Shown: one piece after another, positions 46,657 to 52,123 of the stretch
How the letters are laid out: each line of letters opens with the position of its first letter
Position numbering within the stretch: position 1 is the stretch's first letter
Source of the DNA: Ostreococcus lucimarinus
Lineage: Eukaryota
Assembly: GCA_000092065.1 (NCBI GenBank)
Contig: CP000591.1
DNA length: 64,000 nucleotides
Reading direction: 5' to 3' (one strand)
The notes under the pieces: generated by a model
What the model was told of the DNA's origin: nothing
Databases searched by the model: none
Seen by the model: only the letters and a program-made list of their open reading frames with translations
Translations under genes and position numbers: made by a program

Positions 46657-46971
46657 CTACATCATGTTTTGACGTCTAAAATCGAGCGCGCGCAACTGGT
46701 AGGCGTTGCCGGTTTTGTCGCCGAATCCCTTTTGCAAGTGCGACCGACGCCGCTTGCCCGCCTTCTCCCTCCGGCGGTTCGCCGCTTCTTCGGATAACGC
46801 CAACGCGGTGTCACCGCTCAAGCCGGGAGCGATGCGGCTGAAGCGCGCGCCGCCGAGGGCGCAGAAGGCGAGACCGAATTGCAAGCCCCAAAAACCCAAC
46901 TTGAAGTATTCCTCGCTGCAACGCGCGAGGTTGGGGTCACCGGTGTAGCTGGGAGGGGCGAATTCACTCAT
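46657..46971 (-). CDS. small membrane protein (104 aa) with a glycine-zipper-like TM segment; possible small mitochondrial inner-membrane subunit
   Basis: Encodes MSEFAPPSYTGDPNLARCSEEYFKLGFWGLQFGLAFCALGGARF. ATG at 46971. Upstream track residues are Arg-rich filler. Confidence 0.4.
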   Translation of the reverse strand: MSEFAPPSYTGDPNLARCSEEYFKLGFWGLQFGLAFCALGGARFSRIAPGLSGDTALALSEEAANRRREKAGKRRRSHLQKGFGDKTGNAYQLRALDFRRQNMM

Positions 46972-47177
46972 GTCGTTCGCGCGTTCGTGCGCGTTCGAGC
47001 GTTCGAGCGCGCGCGTCGACGTGTGCGGTCGAACTTCTAACGAAGTCGAGGGTTTGAGCGCGCGCACGACGCGACGCGCGCTAGAATGTCGCGCTCGATG
47101 CGCGCTGCCTACTGGTTTTACTGGAGCTAATGATGCTAAGAATAAGAAGTCGACGCGCGCGCTCGTCGCGCTCGACG

Positions 47178-48053
47178 CTAATTGTGGGTCAACATGTCCG
47201 CCGTCATATATCCAGCGTCGCCGAGACATCGCAGCGAAACGCCGCCGTCGCCGCGGACCTCGACCCGAGTGATCGAACCGTTGTACAGACCGATGCGCAA
47301 CCACGCGTCCGGTGGAAGCTGAAGCGCGCGCAAAACGGAGTACCGAATGACGTTACCGTGACAGACGACGATTTCGTGCTCTGGCGGCGGCGGCTTCGTC
47401 GCCGCCGACGACGGCGACGGCGCTCGGTGGAACGTCTCGCGAAATCCAGCCTCGATTCGCGGAGCGTCCGTGACGTGCACGTGCTCAGCTTGCCTCCAAG
47501 TGTCCGGTTCTGGACGCACGGGCGCGCCCTCGCGAATCAATTCGCTCGATTTACGCGTCGCGTTCGGAAACGCCTCTGCTGCTATGATATCCGCCGTCTC
47601 CTTCGCCCTCACCATCGTACTGTGCGTCATCTTCACCGACGCCGTCGACGGAATGAGTTCCTTCAATCGTCGCGCCGTGAAGCTCGCTTGTTTACGACCC
47701 AAATCCGTGAGTTTGCGCTCGCCGTCCGCCGCGGCGTCGGTTTCGGGCGTCTCCTCCGTCGCCTGGCCGTGTCGCACGAGCCAATACACTTTCGTCGGCG
47801 CCGCGGACGCCGCGACGGAGTCACTTGGAGTTGGATCACCACCGCTCGAACGCCCGTCCCAGTTCCAGTCCCAGGACGTGCGCGCGCGCGCGTCCACGAT
47901 GATTTTTCGTTTCGACAACCGCGCGGCTTCCGCAGCCGCGACCGACGGCTCGGCGCGCGCGTGCGGCGAGACGGCGACGCCTTGGACGCCTAAACCGGCG
48001 CACACGGACGCGAACGCGATCGAGGCGAGACCGCGCGCGCGCGCGCTCGTCAT
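47178..48053 (-). CDS. PGAM5: PGAM5-type Ser/Thr phosphatase (histidine-phosphatase fold) with an N-terminal TM anchor
   Basis: The TM segment MTSARARGLASIAFASVCAGLGV is followed by the WDWNWD multimerisation motif, the catalytic LVRHGQ, and a C-terminus collinear with human PGAM5 (ELIREGAPVRPEP ... IVVCHGNVIRYSVLRALQLPPDAWLRIGLYNGSIT ... LRCLGDAGYM). Confidence 0.8.
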   Translation of the reverse strand: MTSARARGLASIAFASVCAGLGVQGVAVSPHARAEPSVAAAEAARLSKRKIIVDARARTSWDWNWDGRSSGGDPTPSDSVAASAAPTKVYWLVRHGQATEETPETDAAADGERKLTDLGRKQASFTARRLKELIPSTASVKMTHSTMVRAKETADIIAAEAFPNATRKSSELIREGAPVRPEPDTWRQAEHVHVTDAPRIEAGFRETFHRAPSPSSAATKPPPPEHEIVVCHGNVIRYSVLRALQLPPDAWLRIGLYNGSITRVEVRGDGGVSLRCLGDAGYMTADMLTHN

Positions 48054-48168
48054 GGGCTCGTACGAGCGTCGACGAGTGCGGGCGGTGAAAAATTCAGAAA
48101 AATTCAACGTCGTGATATTAAAGGTTAAAGGTACAGGCGCGGCCGGACGCACGGGCTAAAGACTAGGA

Positions 48169-50400
48169 CTAACTGTCTTCAAACTTTTCCACGGATGCTG
48201 TCCTCTTGGCGTGCGCCAACTCCAGTACGACGTGGGAGACGCCCGAGACGCTCAAGTCTTCGTCGATGACTTGCGGGAGGAACTTTTCTCCGAGCAAGTC
48301 CATGAGTGCGCGGTTATCGGGGTCGGTGTTGTGCACGCGGATGGTTTTCCCGACGTCCGCGTATCGCACGTACAGTGAATTCAGCGCGGCGAGGGAGGAG
48401 TAATCCTTGATCTTGCACTTGTCCATGTAAATCACGACGTCTCGTGGATCCGGTCCCATGCGGAACGAGTTTGTAAACTCGCGATCGGTGCCAAAGAAAA
48501 GCTCCCCGTAAACTTCGTACGCCACGCGCGTTGTGCCTTTTTCGCATCCAAATATTTCTTCTTCGCGACGAATGACTCGCAAAGACCCAGTGGAGTTGTC
48601 CCACGCGTAGAATAAGCACGCGACGACGACCCCGACGCCGACTGCGATGGCCAAGTTGGTTCGCTCGGTGACGACGGTGACTAAGATGATGATGGCGGAA
48701 TCTTTCCAGCGAATGCGATCGTTCGTATCGAACCAGAACTTGCGTAGACGACGACCGGCGTAATCTTCGCGCGTGCCATCCTCCTTGCGCCCAATAATCA
48801 ATCCCTTAAGATCGCCGGACATGAGCGGCAAGCACGTCCAGTCAAAGGTGTAAATGACAATCATGAACAAAACTCCCGTCAACGCGGCGAGAGGGATAAG
48901 CTCGATCACCTTGGATGCGGCGACGATGAAAATCAAGAACATAATCGAGGCAAAAGCAGTAGATAAGCGTCCGACGCCGCCAGATTTGACGTTGATCTGC
49001 GATTGCCCAATCATGGCGTCGCCGCCCATCGCCTTGAACATGCCAGACATCGTGTTCGCAATGCCTTGCGCGATGCACTCTTGCGTGAATCTACCGGTGG
49101 CATCCGAGGTGTCGTCCAAAATTTCGTCAACGCACTGAAGCGTGAGCACGGACTCGATCAAACCCACCGCGGCGAGGGAAAACGTGATCCCGAACACGTG
49201 CGCAAAGGACTTGCCTGTGAGGTTCACGTTAGGCGTGTGGTACAAGGGAAAGTCAACCTTCACCGGTGCGGCATCACTCACGACAGGGGTGTCCGCGTGA
49301 ATCAAAGGACGATTAATAGCATGTTCCAAGAGCAAGCACCAAAGAATGGCGACGAGAGATGACGGAAGAATCTTGGTGTACTTTGGCAAGAAGTGCACGA
49401 TGGCCATCGAGGTAAAGACGTAAAACAACATGAGCCAAGTTGTTCCTTCATCGAGCGTGCGCCACACCAATGAATCCTCATAGCCACCGTGGATGTCGGC
49501 GTTTTTGTTTGCCGAGAACTCGGCGAGCGTGATGGTGCCGCTGGAGTCGGTGTCGACCTGCGTCTGCAAGGCGGCGACGTACGCGTTCAAGTCGCTCGTC
49601 GACAAATCCGGAAGTTCGACGGCGTAAACCGTCGTCACCTCCGCCGTGCTGATGAGCCCATCACGATTGCTGTCGAAAACATTAAACGCAGCTTGCCAGT
49701 CTTTCTCCTTGAACACCTCCAACTGAGCCTTGAAGATGATGATGGCCAAGCCGTTGACGAAACCCGTCATGACGGTTTGCGGAATCAGCCGCATGAGTCG
49801 TCCAGCCTGCACGATGCCGAGGACGATCTGTAACACCCCGCACAAGATCATAATCATGAACAACCACTCTAAGCGCGCTGCGTTGGCCTGATGTCGCAAG
49901 CTCTTGCACCCAGCCGCGGCCCCTGTGCACGACGCGATTTCCCCCCACTCCAGCAGCTTCGCCTGCGGCAGCAAACCGTCCGGTTCCATGATCCTCACCG
50001 CCACCACCGCCATCGCTCCCGCGGCGCCGCTCACCATCCCAGGTCGTCCACCGATCAAAGCGGTGATGATGCCCATGAAAAACGTCGCGTACAACCCCAC
50101 GACCGGGTCCACGAGCGCGACGAAGGAAAACGCCACCGACTCGGGCACCTGCGCCACAGCCACCGTGAGCCCGCTCAGGATTTCGCTCTTAAATTTCAAC
50201 GGCTCGGCGCGATAGTACTCGTACGACTCTCTGAAGTATTTCGGTCCGCTCAGGAACGTGTCCGAGAACCCGATGCGGTGCGTGAGCTTTTGCATTCCAT
50301 TCATGGCGGCGACTTTCTCGGCGAGCGCTTTCTCGTGCGCCGCGTCCTCAAGCGCTTGCTTGGACGGCACGTGGTGCAGAGCATCACCGTCGGGCGTCAT
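48169..50400 (-). CDS. SulP/SLC26-family anion transporter with a C-terminal STAS domain and an inserted pair of canonical EF-hands
   Basis: SulP signature region GLTVAVAQVPESVAFSFVALVDPVVGLYATFFMGIITALIGGRPGMVSG. Between membrane helices lie two 12-residue calcium loops, DSNRDGLISTAE and DTDSSGTITLAE. The STAS domain is C-terminal. The first ATG is at 50400; the track start at 50466 is TTG. Confidence 0.75.
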   Translation of the reverse strand: MTPDGDALHHVPSKQALEDAAHEKALAEKVAAMNGMQKLTHRIGFSDTFLSGPKYFRESYEYYRAEPLKFKSEILSGLTVAVAQVPESVAFSFVALVDPVVGLYATFFMGIITALIGGRPGMVSGAAGAMAVVAVRIMEPDGLLPQAKLLEWGEIASCTGAAAGCKSLRHQANAARLEWLFMIMILCGVLQIVLGIVQAGRLMRLIPQTVMTGFVNGLAIIIFKAQLEVFKEKDWQAAFNVFDSNRDGLISTAEVTTVYAVELPDLSTSDLNAYVAALQTQVDTDSSGTITLAEFSANKNADIHGGYEDSLVWRTLDEGTTWLMLFYVFTSMAIVHFLPKYTKILPSSLVAILWCLLLEHAINRPLIHADTPVVSDAAPVKVDFPLYHTPNVNLTGKSFAHVFGITFSLAAVGLIESVLTLQCVDEILDDTSDATGRFTQECIAQGIANTMSGMFKAMGGDAMIGQSQINVKSGGVGRLSTAFASIMFLIFIVAASKVIELIPLAALTGVLFMIVIYTFDWTCLPLMSGDLKGLIIGRKEDGTREDYAGRRLRKFWFDTNDRIRWKDSAIIILVTVVTERTNLAIAVGVGVVVACLFYAWDNSTGSLRVIRREEEIFGCEKGTTRVAYEVYGELFFGTDREFTNSFRMGPDPRDVVIYMDKCKIKDYSSLAALNSLYVRYADVGKTIRVHNTDPDNRALMDLLGEKFLPQVIDEDLSVSGVSHVVLELAHAKRTASVEKFEDS

Positions 50401-50802
50401 GACGTCGCAATCCTCGCGAAATGTCGCGTTCGCGGCGTTCGACGCGCGGGATAGTGCCGGGGACAAGATGCAGAGTGTTTTGGATAGCCGACGCGCGCGC
50501 CGTCGCTCGTCGCGAAACGCGCGGCGCGGACGGAGCGCAGCGCGGACGCGCGGGACGCGGAACGAAGAAACGGAGCGGACGCACGTCTCGAGTTTTCAGT
50601 TTTCGCGCCCTCACCGGCGCGCGTTTTAAAATTTCAACCTTCTACCGTTCGGAGCGAGCTAAACTCCCATCCGGACCGAGACGCGTAGACGCGTCGTCGT
50701 CGTCGTCGTCGTCGCGAACGAGCGAGCGAACGAGCAAACGCGCGACGAACGGTTTACGTCCCATCTCGAGTGTTTCACGTCAACCACCGTCCGAGCGGTC
50801 GT

Positions 50803-50865
50803 TTACGCGGCGCACTTCACGCGACCCGCCTTGTTGATGGCGGAGATGCGAGCGAGCGCGGCTTT
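50803..50865 (-). CDS. RPL28: 60S ribosomal protein L28e, exon 2 (last 20 codons)
   Basis: After a 176-bp intron (51041..50866, GTGCGA ... ACTGACG ... TAG) the frame reads KAALARISAINKAGRVKCAA*, matching plant L28e ..KKAALARLSAISKG. Confidence 0.65.
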   Translation of the reverse strand, partial: KAALARISAINKAGRVKCAA

Positions 50866-51041
50866 CTACGAATCGAACGCGTTTCGCGCACCCGTCAGTC
50901 ATCGGATTCCGTCGCCGTCGCGCGCGCGCACCGCCTCCATCGTCGCGCGCGTCCATCCCGCGCGAACGTCCTGTCCCGCGTGTTACGCGTGTCACGCGCG
51001 TTACGCGTCGCGTCCTCCTCGAAAACCCTAAACGATCGCAC

Positions 51042-51344
51042 CTCCAAGTCCGGTCGCGCCTTCGCCGCGATCTTCACCTCGCCCGCCTGCGACTTGAACG
51101 ACCCGCACAATTTCTTCCCATCGCACGTCGCCGCCGGCTTCCCCTTCCCGCCGTCGTGCTCGCGAATATCGATCGTCTTCGCGTTCGCCAGCCCGCTCGC
51201 GCGGAACGACACCTCCGCGGTCACGTTGCCCGGTTCCGCGCTGAATCGCGCGCCGTGTCCGCTCGTCGACGCGCGCGTGAACGCGTTGTGTTTCTTCGTC
51301 ACCTGCCACAGGAAGTCATCGCTCGCGGGGACGTGGGAGATCAT
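51042..51344 (-). CDS. RPL28: 60S ribosomal protein L28e, exon 1
   Basis: MISHVPASDDFLWQVTKKHNAFT ... FSAEPGNVTAEVSFRASGLANAKTIDI ... KARPDLE is collinear with eukaryotic L28e. ATG at 51344. Confidence 0.8.
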
Positions 51345-51727
51345 CGCGTTCGCGCGTTCGCGTCGCGGAGAGACGGCGCGCGGCATCGGCGCGCGGGCGA
51401 CGACGCGCTGGACCCTAATCACACTCGCGCGCGGCGCCGGACCTCGCGTCGTTTCGCGAGACGCGTCGATCGACGCGACGCGACGCCCGCGACGCGACTT
51501 CCGCGCGCGACTTCCGAGCGAATTTTCGCGATGGCGATCGATAAATTGATGATGATCTCGGGCGCGGGCACGGTGCGCGACGACGCGAACGCGCGAACGC
51601 GCGAACGCGCAAATTTGCAAATTCGCGATTTCATCGCGACGGCGGTGCTGACGCGACGTCGTCCGCGACGCGCGCGACGACTGACGACGCGCGGGCGCGC
51701 GCGCGATAGCTGTCCTACGGCGTGCAG

Positions 51728-51772
51728 ATGAAATTCATGCCCAAAGTGGCGAGTAAGATGTACTGGAAAGAG
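51728..51772 (+). CDS. small conserved-looking membrane protein, predicted exon 1 (15 codons)
   Basis: ATGAAATTCATGCCCAAAGTGGCGAGTAAGATGTACTGGAAAGAG is followed directly by a GTGCGC donor. An 81-bp intron has ACTGACG 25 nt before the CAG acceptor. Confidence 0.4.
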
Positions 51773-51853
51773 GTGCGCGCGACGGCGCGCGCGAACGCGA
51801 ACGCGAACGACCGCGATCGATCGTTCGACTGACGGTTGGGCGTCGCGCCGCAG

Positions 51854-52123
51854 GGCGAACGAAACAACATCGACACCGTGCAGAGCGGATGGTTGGGCAC
51901 CGTGCTCTTGGGCTCGGGCGCGCTGCAAGTCATGTCCGCGCTGGACGGCGAGTGCACGAAGAACCAAATGGGCGGCGCCGCGCTCGCGTGGGCGGTGACG
52001 CTTCCGGAATACGTCGCGCAGCGCGACGACTTCAAGGGACCGATGCTCTACGCGAACACGGCGATGGCCACCGCGCTGACCGCGGTGCTCGTCAAGTCGT
52101 ACTTGGATAAGCGGGACAAGTGA
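51854..52123 (+). CDS. small membrane protein, exon 2 (spliced product about 104 aa)
   Basis: GERNNIDTVQSGWLGTVLLGSGALQVMSAL ... AMATALTAVLVKSYLDKRDK has two hydrophobic helices with GxxxG-like packing motifs. The track's M at 51836 is TTG. Confidence 0.45.
   Translation, partial: GERNNIDTVQSGWLGTVLLGSGALQVMSALDGECTKNQMGGAALAWAVTLPEYVAQRDDFKGPMLYANTAMATALTAVLVKSYLDKRDK

What the first reader, a model, noticed from the sequence alone, without database searches (positions are those of the whole stretch)
49540..49690. SulP/SLC26 anion transporter carrying an inserted pair of canonical EF-hands
Within the 48169-50400(-) SulP gene, between membrane segments, lie two textbook 12-residue calcium-binding loops, D-S-N-R-D-G-L-I-S-T-A-E and D-T-D-S-S-G-T-I-T-L-A-E, about 35 residues apart and each flanked by helices. 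Canonical SulP and SLC26 proteins have no EF-hands; their regulation goes through the C-terminal STAS domain. A calcium-sensing loop inside the transport domain would be an unusual direct Ca2+ gate on sulfate or bicarbonate transport.
Basis: seen in the sequence. Interest (0 to 1): 0.6.

Follow-up and report, generated by a model that had tools for sequence, protein, structure and literature searches.

The report
SulP transporter with outward-facing EF-hands
A marine green picoalga (Ostreococcus) anion transporter of the SulP/SLC26 family really does carry a pair of textbook calcium-binding EF-hands, but they sit in a loop on the outer (non-cytosolic) face of the protein's scaffold half, so they are more likely a calcium-stabilised outer cap than a switch for cytosolic calcium signals.

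Summary
The single-exon ORF 48169-50400(-) encodes a 743-aa SulP/SLC26 protein (Pfam Sulfate_transp E 2.4e-43; closest solved structure is SLC26Dg). An ~87-aa insert (aa 232-318) holds two canonical EF-hand loops. They are the only two PROSITE EF-loop matches in the six-frame translation of the whole window.

The insert is coding, not an intron. Its dN/dS against three orthologues is 0.09-0.16, and a homologue with the insert comes from an MMETSP transcript.

The insert marks one marine algal clade. Named members are Ostreococcus tauri, Cymbomonas, Pycnococcus and the stramenopile Triparma. It is absent from about 143 other SulP cluster representatives. In some lineages the first loop has decayed.

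The insert lies between TM5 and TM6, which is the extracellular loop of the gate (scaffold) domain, opposite the cytosolic STAS domain. It therefore cannot read cytosolic Ca2+. It always co-occurs with a Cys-pair insert in the neighbouring extracellular TM3-TM4 loop.

My best reading is a Ca2+-loaded ectodomain that shapes the outer vestibule. A luminal Ca2+ sensor in an organelle membrane is the main rival.

The O. tauri orthologue is already auto-named "EF-Hand 1, calcium-binding site". I found no paper describing the architecture. Substrate and location are unknown.

The parts
48169..50400 (-). Complete single-exon CDS (743 aa plus stop) of a SulP/SLC26-family anion transporter
   Evidence: ORF list. 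Pfam Sulfate_transp E 2.4e-43. phmmer to SLC26Dg 5da0 E 2.7e-70. AF2 pLDDT 83.6, pTM 0.80. Foldseek top hit 5da0 E 8e-27. A 100%-identical protein, P0001, is in public data.
49447..49707 (-). ~87-aa insert (aa 232-318) between TM5 and TM6: EF-hand pair plus a conserved tail (IHxGxxE...WRTL)
   Evidence: Gap relative to SLC26Dg between its residues ~154 and 149. Alignments A1 and sel.aln. pLDDT 90-96, with stalk strands 231-233 and 311-313. dN/dS 0.085-0.164.
49639..49674 (-). EF-hand loop 1, DSNRDGLISTAE (aa 243-254)
   Evidence: PS00018 match. EF-hand_1/5/6 hits. Ligand positions 1, 3, 5, 6, 8 and 12 are canonical.
49519..49554 (-). EF-hand loop 2, DTDSSGTITLAE (aa 283-294)
   Evidence: PS00018 match. 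Second stretch of EF-hand_1. Ligand positions canonical.
49711..49806 (-). TM5 (aa 199-230), gate domain, running from inside to outside into the insert
   Evidence: AF2 helices 199-205 and 208-230. Aligned to SLC26Dg residues 94-154.
49378..49446 (-). TM6 (aa 319-341), gate domain, leaving the insert
   Evidence: AF2 helix 319-341. Aligned to SLC26Dg from residue 149.
49873..49974 (-). Companion insert in the extracellular TM3-TM4 loop (aa 143-176) with a conserved Cys pair; it lies on the core domain
   Evidence: Absent from SLC26Dg. The loop is 31-52 aa with 2 Cys in every EF-insert protein except Cymbomonas, against 1-16 aa in other SulPs. pLDDT 78-93.
48703..48816 (-). Basic insert in the cytoplasmic TM12-TM13 loop (aa 529-566); highly conserved but predicted disordered
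   Evidence: 95-97% identity and dN/dS 0.016-0.04 among Ostreococcus orthologues. pLDDT 47-60. 10 K+R in 36 aa.
48256..48591 (-). C-terminal STAS-like domain (aa ~604-715), cytosolic
   Evidence: Pfam STAS 17.4 bits, below GA 22.6. Aligned to the SLC26Dg STAS, i-Evalue 1.5e-05. AF2 predicts an alternating beta/alpha fold. Orthologue P0023 passes GA at 33.1 bits.

Best explanation
The gene encodes a 14-TM SulP/SLC26 anion carrier of an Ostreococcus-type marine picoalga. A calmodulin-lobe-like EF-hand pair was inserted into the TM5-TM6 loop in an ancestor of this algal clade.

That loop is on the extracytosolic face of the gate (scaffold) domain. The EF pair therefore forms a small ectodomain on top of the transporter, next to a second clade-specific insert: a Cys-pair (probably disulfide) hairpin plus short helix in the TM3-TM4 loop of the mobile core domain.

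If the protein sits in the plasma membrane, it faces seawater with about 10 mM Ca2+, and canonical EF loops would be permanently occupied. I therefore propose that Ca2+ is a structural cofactor. It rigidifies an outer cap or vestibule that may contact the core-domain loop and tune access or elevator movement from outside.

Shown here: the gene, the fold, the EF motifs, the insertion site, conservation and purifying selection, and co-occurrence of the two inserts.

Inferred: sidedness (by homology with solved SLC26 structures and by charge bias), Ca2+ occupancy, the cap/vestibule role, and any contact between the two inserts.

Unknown: substrate and membrane.
For: Family and fold:
- SulP identity and fold.

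EF-hand motifs:
- Two canonical EF loops, the only PS00018 matches in the window.
- EF HMM hits above GA.
- Calmodulin matches in PDB.
- A confident 4-helix EF-pair model with the 250/290 beta bridge.

Position and sidedness:
- The insert sits between SLC26Dg-equivalent TM5 and TM6.
- The TM5-TM6 and TM3-TM4 loops are extracellular in solved SLC26 proteins, and TM5-7 belong to the gate domain (PMC8347359; PMC6656431).
- K+R density is 12 per 60 aa in the predicted inside loops and 9 per 160 aa in the outside loops. The insert has net charge -12.
- A conserved Cys pair in the neighbouring outside loop fits an oxidising compartment.

Conservation:
- The insert is kept at 49-89% identity. Both loops are canonical in 18 of 28 clade members examined.
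- dN/dS is 0.09-0.16.
- The two ecto-inserts co-occur strictly.
- All named carriers are marine: O. tauri, Cymbomonas, Pycnococcus, Triparma.

Structural rather than switching role:
- Lineages with a decayed loop 1 (Bathycoccus-like P0019, P0023, P0026; Pycnococcus) keep the insert's length and its predicted fold. This fits a mainly structural module better than an indispensable Ca2+ switch.
Against: - No coordinates were available from the model, so I could not see the position of the EF lobe relative to the membrane, the STAS domain or the TM3-TM4 loop. Sidedness rests on homology and charge bias.
- Subcellular location is unknown. If the protein is in an internal membrane, luminal Ca2+ may vary and the pair could be a true sensor.
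- Strict retention of all six ligand positions in both loops across most of the clade suggests Ca2+ binding matters. That is equally compatible with a regulatory role.
- A permanently saturated site is inferred from typical EF-hand affinities and seawater chemistry (my own knowledge). It was not measured. High Mg2+ and ionic strength could shift the affinity into a responsive range.
- The retained fold in the decayed orthologue was predicted with an alignment shared with canonical members, so it is weak evidence.
Confidence: 0.5

Rival explanations
1. Luminal Ca2+ sensor. The transporter resides in an internal membrane (vacuole or acidocalcisome, ER, or a plastid envelope with the loop in the intermembrane space). 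The EF pair reads luminal Ca2+, as STIM1 does in the ER, and couples anion flux (a counter-ion for Ca2+ storage) to store filling.
For: Same topology evidence as the best explanation: the loop is extracytosolic. Both loops are strictly canonical in most members, as expected if Ca2+ binding and release matters. No location data exclude an internal membrane.
Against: The N-terminus is acidic and helical, with no obvious organelle-targeting presequence. This is only a visual judgement; no predictor was run. Loop 1 has decayed in several lineages without loss of the insert. No experimental localisation exists.
Confidence: 0.2
2. Ca2+-independent module. The EF-hand fold is retained as a scaffold or protein-protein interaction ectodomain, for example for dimer contacts, a cell-surface partner or a virus receptor site. 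Ca2+ binding is incidental.
For: Bathycoccus-like orthologues, Pycnococcus, P0034 and P0039/40 have lost canonical ligands in loop 1, and P0039/40 in both loops. They keep the ~91-99-aa loop length and the flanking conserved motifs. The predicted fold is unchanged in P0023.
Against: 18 of 28 members keep all ligand positions in both loops over deep divergence, including green algae and a stramenopile. Loop 2 ligands are still intact in the Bathycoccus-like group except Gly6. dN/dS of the insert is low.
Confidence: 0.2
3. One reading: a cytosolic Ca2+ gate inside the transport domain that couples cytosolic Ca2+ signals directly to sulfate or bicarbonate transport.
For: The EF-hands are real and canonical. 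EF-hands in most transporters and channels are cytosolic (general knowledge).
Against: The insert is in the TM5-TM6 loop. That loop is extracellular in solved SLC26 structures and belongs to the gate domain, not the core domain. An odd number of TM segments separates it from both cytosolic termini. Charge bias supports the standard orientation. The neighbouring loop carries a conserved Cys pair.
Confidence: 0.04
4. Artefact: the insert is an unrecognised intron or a mis-assembled or mis-called region, not part of the mature protein.
For: None found. The only point is that the insert splits the Pfam Sulfate_transp match into two stretches.
Against: The reading frame is continuous and in frame. 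dN/dS is 0.09-0.16 with dS of 1.2 or more against three syntenic orthologues. Canonical EF motifs are conserved down to 44-55% identity. A homologue with the insert comes from an MMETSP transcript (P0043). The same protein was recovered on hundreds of independent contigs.
Confidence: 0.01

Closest known systems
Ostreococcus tauri XP_022840005.1 / CEF99742.1 (UniRef A0A090MAJ1), auto-named 'EF-Hand 1, calcium-binding site'
   Same: It is the orthologue. It belongs to the 90% cluster of P0003, which is 89% identical to the window protein. It has the same insert with both loops canonical (DANRDGSLSTAE, DTDSSGHISLAE) and the same His_Phos_1 neighbour.
   Different: It comes from a different Ostreococcus species. 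It has only an automated name. I found no functional or structural description in the searchable literature.
SLC26Dg, the Deinococcus geothermalis SulP/SLC26 transporter (PDB 5DA0, 5IOF), described as a fumarate/H+ symporter (my knowledge)
   Same: It is the closest solved structure: phmmer E 2.7e-70, Foldseek E 8e-27, TM-score up to 0.86 on the target. It shares the 7+7 inverted-repeat membrane domain plus a C-terminal STAS domain.
   Different: SLC26Dg has short TM3-TM4, TM5-TM6 and TM12-TM13 loops. The window protein has inserts of about 34, 87 and 38 aa there. Identity over the aligned parts is only about 29-30%, so the substrate cannot be transferred.
BicA (cyanobacterial Na+/HCO3- SulP) and DauA (E. 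coli C4-dicarboxylate SulP)
   Same: Same family. NCBIfam models hit at E 2.8e-32 and 2.5e-38. The BicA membrane domain 6KI1 is a structural match.
   Different: Scores of 112 and 131.8 bits are far below the equivalog cutoffs of 880 and 614. Neither has EF-hands.
Calmodulin-type EF-hand pair (Pfam PF13499/PF00036; PROSITE PS00018)
   Same: Two 12-residue loops with canonical ligands, flanking helices and a loop-loop beta bridge. Calmodulin lobes in PDB match at E about 1e-6.
   Different: It is a single lobe embedded in a membrane-protein loop. The loops are 40 rather than about 36 residues apart. It faces the extracytosolic side. The pair model is just below GA in this protein (27.3 against 30), though above it in Triparma and Cymbomonas homologues.
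Extracytosolic EF-hand domains: the SPARC/BM-40 EC domain (extracellular) and STIM1 EF-SAM (ER lumen). Analogy from my own knowledge, not tested here
   Same: EF-hand pairs that work outside the cytosol, either as structurally Ca2+-loaded modules (SPARC) or as sensors of high luminal Ca2+ (STIM1). These are the two functional models considered here.
   Different: There is no sequence relationship beyond the EF-hand fold. Those are soluble or single-pass proteins, not loops of a polytopic carrier.
Carriers and channels with EF-hands: mitochondrial SCaMC/aralar carriers (N-terminal EF domains facing the intermembrane space) and plant TPC1 (cytosolic EF pair). From my own knowledge
   Same: EF-hands fused to a transport protein so that Ca2+ acts directly on it.
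   Different: Different transporter folds. Their EF domains are terminal or in a cytosolic linker, not inserted in an extracellular loop of a 7+7 elevator-type carrier.

Membership tests
SulP / SLC26 (Pfam PF00916 Sulfate_transp) | Significant match to the Sulfate_transp membrane-domain model above the gathering score | tested here: met
   148.8 bits against GA 23.2, E 2.4e-43, in two stretches split by the insert.
SulP / SLC26 | 14-TM 7+7 inverted-repeat fold with core and gate domains | tested here: met
   AF2 model with pTM 0.80 and 14 helical segments. The 48 best Foldseek hits are all SLC26/SulP structures; 5da0 E 8e-27, 8zzv TM-score (target) 0.86.
SulP / SLC26 | C-terminal cytosolic STAS domain | tested here: inconclusive
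   Pfam STAS 17.4 bits is below GA 22.6. However, aa 569-713 align to the SLC26Dg STAS (i-Evalue 1.5e-05). AF2 predicts a beta/alpha domain at 608-712. Orthologues P0023 and P0194 pass GA.
NCBIfam TIGR00815 sulP subfamily | Score at or above the curated cutoff of 380.45 | tested here: not met
   167.9 bits. The match is fragmented by three inserts. The protein is a divergent family member, not a typical TIGR00815 protein.
BicA bicarbonate transporter (NF050096) / DauA (NF008660) equivalogs | Score at or above the equivalog cutoff | tested here: not met
   112 against 880, and 131.8 against 614. The substrate cannot be assigned.
EF-hand (PROSITE PS00018; Pfam PF00036) | 12-residue loop with Asp1, [DNS]3, [DENSTG]5, Gly6-type residue, hydrophobic 8 and Glu/Asp12, and an HMM score above GA | tested here: met
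   Two PS00018 matches, the only ones in the window. EF-hand_1 29.5 (GA 25.4), EF-hand_5 28.7 (GA 25.9), EF-hand_6 27.4 (GA 25).
EF-hand pair (Pfam PF13499 EF-hand_7) | The pair model scores above GA 30, and the two helix-loop-helix units are packed with a loop-loop beta bridge | tested here: inconclusive
   27.3 bits is below GA 30 in the window protein, but homologues score 35.3 and 35.4. AF2 predicts four helices and the 250/290 bridge at pLDDT 90-96.
EF-hand | Actual Ca2+ binding | not testable with these tools
   Needs ITC, a 45Ca overlay or a structure of aa 232-318.
Extracytosolic EF-hand modules (SPARC-like structural, STIM1-like sensor): functional analogy only | The EF pair is located outside the cytosol | tested here: inconclusive
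   Inferred from the insertion site and the published SLC26 topology, from charge bias and from the Cys pair in the adjacent loop. No coordinates or experiments were available.

The most novel reading that the evidence does not exclude
The EF-hand ectodomain sits on the gate domain, and the co-inherited Cys-pair/helix insert sits on the core domain. Together they could form a Ca2+-dependent extracellular clamp across the core-gate interface. External or luminal Ca2+ would then directly lock or release the elevator movement of an SLC26-type carrier. That would be the first SLC26/SulP regulated from the trans side by a built-in Ca2+ sensor. It could link anion uptake (sulfate, bicarbonate or organic acid) to ambient Ca2+ or salinity in marine picophytoplankton.
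Probability: 0.15. Interest if true: 0.7.

Novelty: new variant of a known kind. Interest (0 to 1): 0.45.

Why it matters
SLC26/SulP carriers are known to be regulated through their cytosolic STAS domain. A folded Ca2+-binding domain built into an extracellular loop of the scaffold half has not been described in the literature I could search.

If Ca2+ binding there affects transport, it would give a natural handle on the elevator mechanism from the outside. It would also be a direct link between seawater or luminal Ca2+ and anion uptake in some of the most abundant marine picoeukaryotes.

If the domain is only a Ca2+-stabilised cap, it is a neat but modest example of domain insertion. The clade-restricted distribution includes a bolidophyte stramenopile, so the insert is also a clean marker for tracing gene transfer between green and ochrophyte algae.

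Tried and rejected
1. A word-indexed homologue search with the 107-aa insert alone returned only two fragments. It wasted one of the three capped searches.

2. Foldseek against afdb50, which would have given named organisms, was unavailable.

3. Model coordinates are not exposed. I could not measure where the EF lobe sits or whether it touches the TM3-TM4 loop.

4. Five literature searches and one targeted read found no description of an EF-hand in any SulP/SLC26. Terms combined EF-hand with SulP, SLC26, STAS and Ostreococcus, or used Ostreococcus/Micromonas with SulP, sulfate permease and bicarbonate transporter. This covers only the open-access library.

5. Cluster look-ups for ten further homologues gave no organism names. 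I assigned P0023 and P0026 to Bathycoccus-like algae only from contig GC (48% and 41.5%) and shared synteny. That assignment is tentative.

6. The intron hypothesis was rejected.

7. The cytosolic-gate hypothesis was rejected on topology.

8. Substrate assignment to bicarbonate or dicarboxylate was rejected as unsupported.
Full report
**1. What is in the sequence**

The minus-strand ORF 48169..50466 has its first ATG at 50400 and encodes 743 aa. An identical 743-aa protein is present in public assemblies, and members of its cluster occur on hundreds of contigs.

Pfam finds Sulfate_transp at 148.8 bits (E 2.4e-43), split into two stretches. Between the stretches it finds EF-hand_1 (29.5 bits, gathering cutoff GA 25.4, two stretches), EF-hand_5 (28.7 bits) and EF-hand_6 (27.4 bits). 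The pair model EF-hand_7 scores 27.3 bits (E 4.8e-06), just under its cutoff of 30.

The PROSITE EF-loop pattern PS00018 matches only twice in all six reading frames of the 64-kb window (127,996 residues). Both matches are here: DSNRDGLISTAEV (aa 243-255, window 49636-49674) and DTDSSGTITLAEF (aa 283-295, window 49516-49554). Calmodulin chains in the PDB match aa 233-296 at E about 1e-6.

**2. Not an intron or artefact**

I compared the window CDS with three syntenic orthologues (L001 87%, L003 89%, L004 78% identical by BLASTP; 86.1%, 89.8% and 77.5% in the codon alignments used here). All three have the same His_Phos_1 neighbour. The insert (aa 232-318) has dN/dS of 0.147, 0.164 and 0.085, with dS of 1.2 or more.

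The insert evolves faster than the TM helices (dN/dS 0.03-0.11) but is clearly protein-coding. A homologue carrying the insert comes from an MMETSP transcript (P0043).

**3. Organism and distribution**

- The 89%-identical cluster contains Ostreococcus tauri XP_022840005.1/CEF99742.1, whose automated name is 'EF-Hand 1, calcium-binding site'. The window is therefore from an Ostreococcus-type Mamiellophyceae genome (window GC 62.7%), and the architecture is already recorded in databases.
- The ~87-aa insert aligns in every member of one eukaryotic clade down to about 44-50% identity. Named members are Cymbomonas tetramitiformis, Pycnococcus provasolii and the stramenopile Triparma columacea.
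- In an exhaustive HMMER search of 1.84 billion cluster representatives there were 6,871 SulP hits. Of the best 150, only seven (P0019, P0041, P0232, P0238, P0271, P0298, P0305) match the insert. None of the others has a PS00018 loop.
- Pelagomonas-type and bacterial relatives lack the insert.
- Both loops keep all canonical ligand positions in 18 of 28 clade members examined. Loop 1 has decayed in low-GC Bathycoccus-like orthologues (P0019, P0023, P0026; contigs of 48% and 41.5% GC with conserved NDK/PRAI synteny), in Pycnococcus and in P0034. Both loops have decayed in P0039/40.
- The decayed orthologue P0023 is still predicted with the same four-helix module at pLDDT about 90. That prediction shares its alignment with canonical members, so it is weak evidence.

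**4. Where the insert sits**

The closest solved structure is the prokaryotic SLC26Dg (5DA0; phmmer E 2.7e-70, Foldseek E 8e-27). Query aa 177-237 align to SLC26Dg 94-154, and aa 319-528 align to SLC26Dg 149-349. The insert therefore replaces the short TM5-TM6 connection.

AlphaFold2 with a 97-sequence alignment gives pLDDT 83.6 and pTM 0.80. The insert has pLDDT 90-96. Helices are at 235-242, 252-262, 268-282 and 292-297. A beta bridge joins loop residues 250 and 290, which is the hallmark of a paired EF-hand. Two short stalk strands (231-233, 311-313) tie the module to TM5 and TM6.

In SLC26 proteins TM1-4 and TM8-11 form the mobile core (transport) domain, and TM5-7 and TM12-14 form the gate/scaffold domain. 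The TM5-TM6 loop is extracellular (PMC8347359), as is the alpha3-alpha4 loop (PMC6656431).

Five TM segments precede the insert and nine follow it before the cytosolic STAS domain. Charge bias agrees with the standard orientation: predicted inside loops carry 12 K+R in 60 aa, outside loops carry 9 in 160 aa, and the insert itself has 16 D+E against 4 K+R.

I conclude with high confidence (about 0.85-0.9), though by inference, that the EF pair is extracytosolic and belongs to the scaffold half. It is not 'inside the transport domain' and it is not exposed to cytosolic Ca2+.

**5. A companion insert**

Every protein with the ~91-aa TM5-TM6 loop also has a 31-52-aa TM3-TM4 loop, where other SulPs have 1-16 aa. 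This loop contains a short helix (LLPQAKLLEW) and a conserved Cys pair (C-x2 to C-x7-C). The only exception is Cymbomonas, which lacks the cysteines.

This loop is on the same extracellular face but belongs to the core domain. A conserved Cys pair fits an oxidising, non-cytosolic compartment. The strict co-occurrence suggests that the two inserts work together. I could not test physical contact because model coordinates are not exposed.

**6. Mechanism**

Best-supported reading (confidence about 0.5): a Ca2+-loaded ectodomain that, with the disulfide hairpin, builds an outer cap or vestibule on a SulP carrier.

All named carriers are marine. At about 10 mM external Ca2+, a canonical EF pair would normally be saturated (general knowledge of EF-hand affinities). 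Ca2+ would then be a structural cofactor, as in the extracellular EF pair of SPARC. Survival of the module in lineages with decayed loop 1 fits a mainly structural role.

Rivals:
- A STIM1-like luminal sensor, if the carrier resides in an internal Ca2+-storing compartment (about 0.2).
- A Ca2+-independent interaction module (about 0.2).
- An intron or artefact (about 0.01).

The substrate is unknown. The BicA and DauA equivalog models and TIGR00815 all score far below their cutoffs. The nearest characterised relative, SLC26Dg, is only about 30% identical.

**7. Comparison with what is known, and novelty**

The protein is a bona fide SulP/SLC26 member by Pfam score and by fold. Its STAS domain is weak by sequence but predicted structurally. 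It carries a bona fide EF-hand pair by motif, HMM and predicted structure.

I found no paper describing EF-hands in any SulP/SLC26. The only prior record is the automated name of the O. tauri orthologue.

EF-hands attached to transport proteins are known (mitochondrial SCaMC/aralar carriers, TPC1), and extracytosolic EF-hands are known (SPARC, STIM1). Those comparisons rest on my own knowledge. The combination seen here, an EF pair inserted in an extracellular loop of a 7+7 elevator carrier, is a new variant of a known kind.

It is moderately interesting. It would surprise an SLC26 specialist and it is readily testable. Its functional importance is unproven, and a purely structural role is plausible.

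**8. Other observations**

- A 36-38-aa basic insert in the cytoplasmic TM12-TM13 loop (aa 529-566) is the most conserved segment among Ostreococcus orthologues (95-97% identity, dN/dS 0.016-0.04). It is nevertheless predicted disordered. It is a candidate cytosolic regulatory site and may be where any cytosolic regulation really acts.
- The architecture is shared between green algae and a bolidophyte, which hints at gene transfer.

Noticed in passing
window 49873-49974 (-), aa 143-176: A clade-specific insert in the extracellular TM3-TM4 loop (core domain). It has a short helix and a conserved Cys pair (C-x6-C here, CxGC in shorter homologues). It is present in every EF-insert protein except that Cymbomonas lacks the cysteines. 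It is a possible partner of the EF module.
   Followed up: partly
window 48703-48816 (-), aa 529-566: A basic insert (GRKEDGTREDYAGRRLRKFWFDTNDRIRWKDS) in the cytoplasmic TM12-TM13 loop. It is 95-97% identical among Ostreococcus orthologues (dN/dS 0.016-0.04) but has low pLDDT (47-60). It looks like a conserved disordered regulatory or binding motif, possibly a calmodulin-type target (speculative).
   Followed up: partly
window 48256-48591 (-), aa ~604-715: The STAS domain is divergent. The Pfam score of 17.4 is below the 22.6 cutoff, although the fold is predicted and orthologues pass the cutoff.
   Followed up: partly
P0194 (Triparma columacea GMI44972.1) and cluster P0038: A stramenopile (bolidophyte) carries the same SulP+EF architecture with both loops canonical (EF-hand_7 35.3 bits). 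It is about 54% identical to the Ostreococcus protein. This suggests green-to-ochrophyte gene transfer or endosymbiotic gene transfer.
   Followed up: partly
window 47178-48152 (-); loci L001, L003, L005, L006: The downstream neighbour is a His_Phos_1 phosphatase (E 1.5e-19). SulP-His_Phos_1 microsynteny is conserved among Ostreococcus. Nearby NDK and PRAI genes are also kept in low-GC Bathycoccus-like contigs.
   Followed up: partly
L005 3730-5937 (P0023) and L006 8001-10253 (P0026): Orthologues on 48% and 41.5% GC contigs keep the insert but have lost canonical ligands in EF loop 1 (DSNGAEEISSAD in P0023; an elongated loop in P0026) and Gly6 of loop 2. This is a natural series of decayed sites, useful for testing whether Ca2+ binding matters.
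   Followed up: partly
P0267, P0326, P0295, P0315 and others: The TM5-TM6 loop is a hotspot for unrelated insertions (40-120 aa, no EF motifs) in other eukaryote-sized SulP homologues.
   Followed up: no
window 46657-52123, both strands: Many long overlapping ORFs on both strands and in several frames, rich in Arg, Ala and Pro. They are a by-product of the ~63% GC content rather than genes.
   Followed up: no
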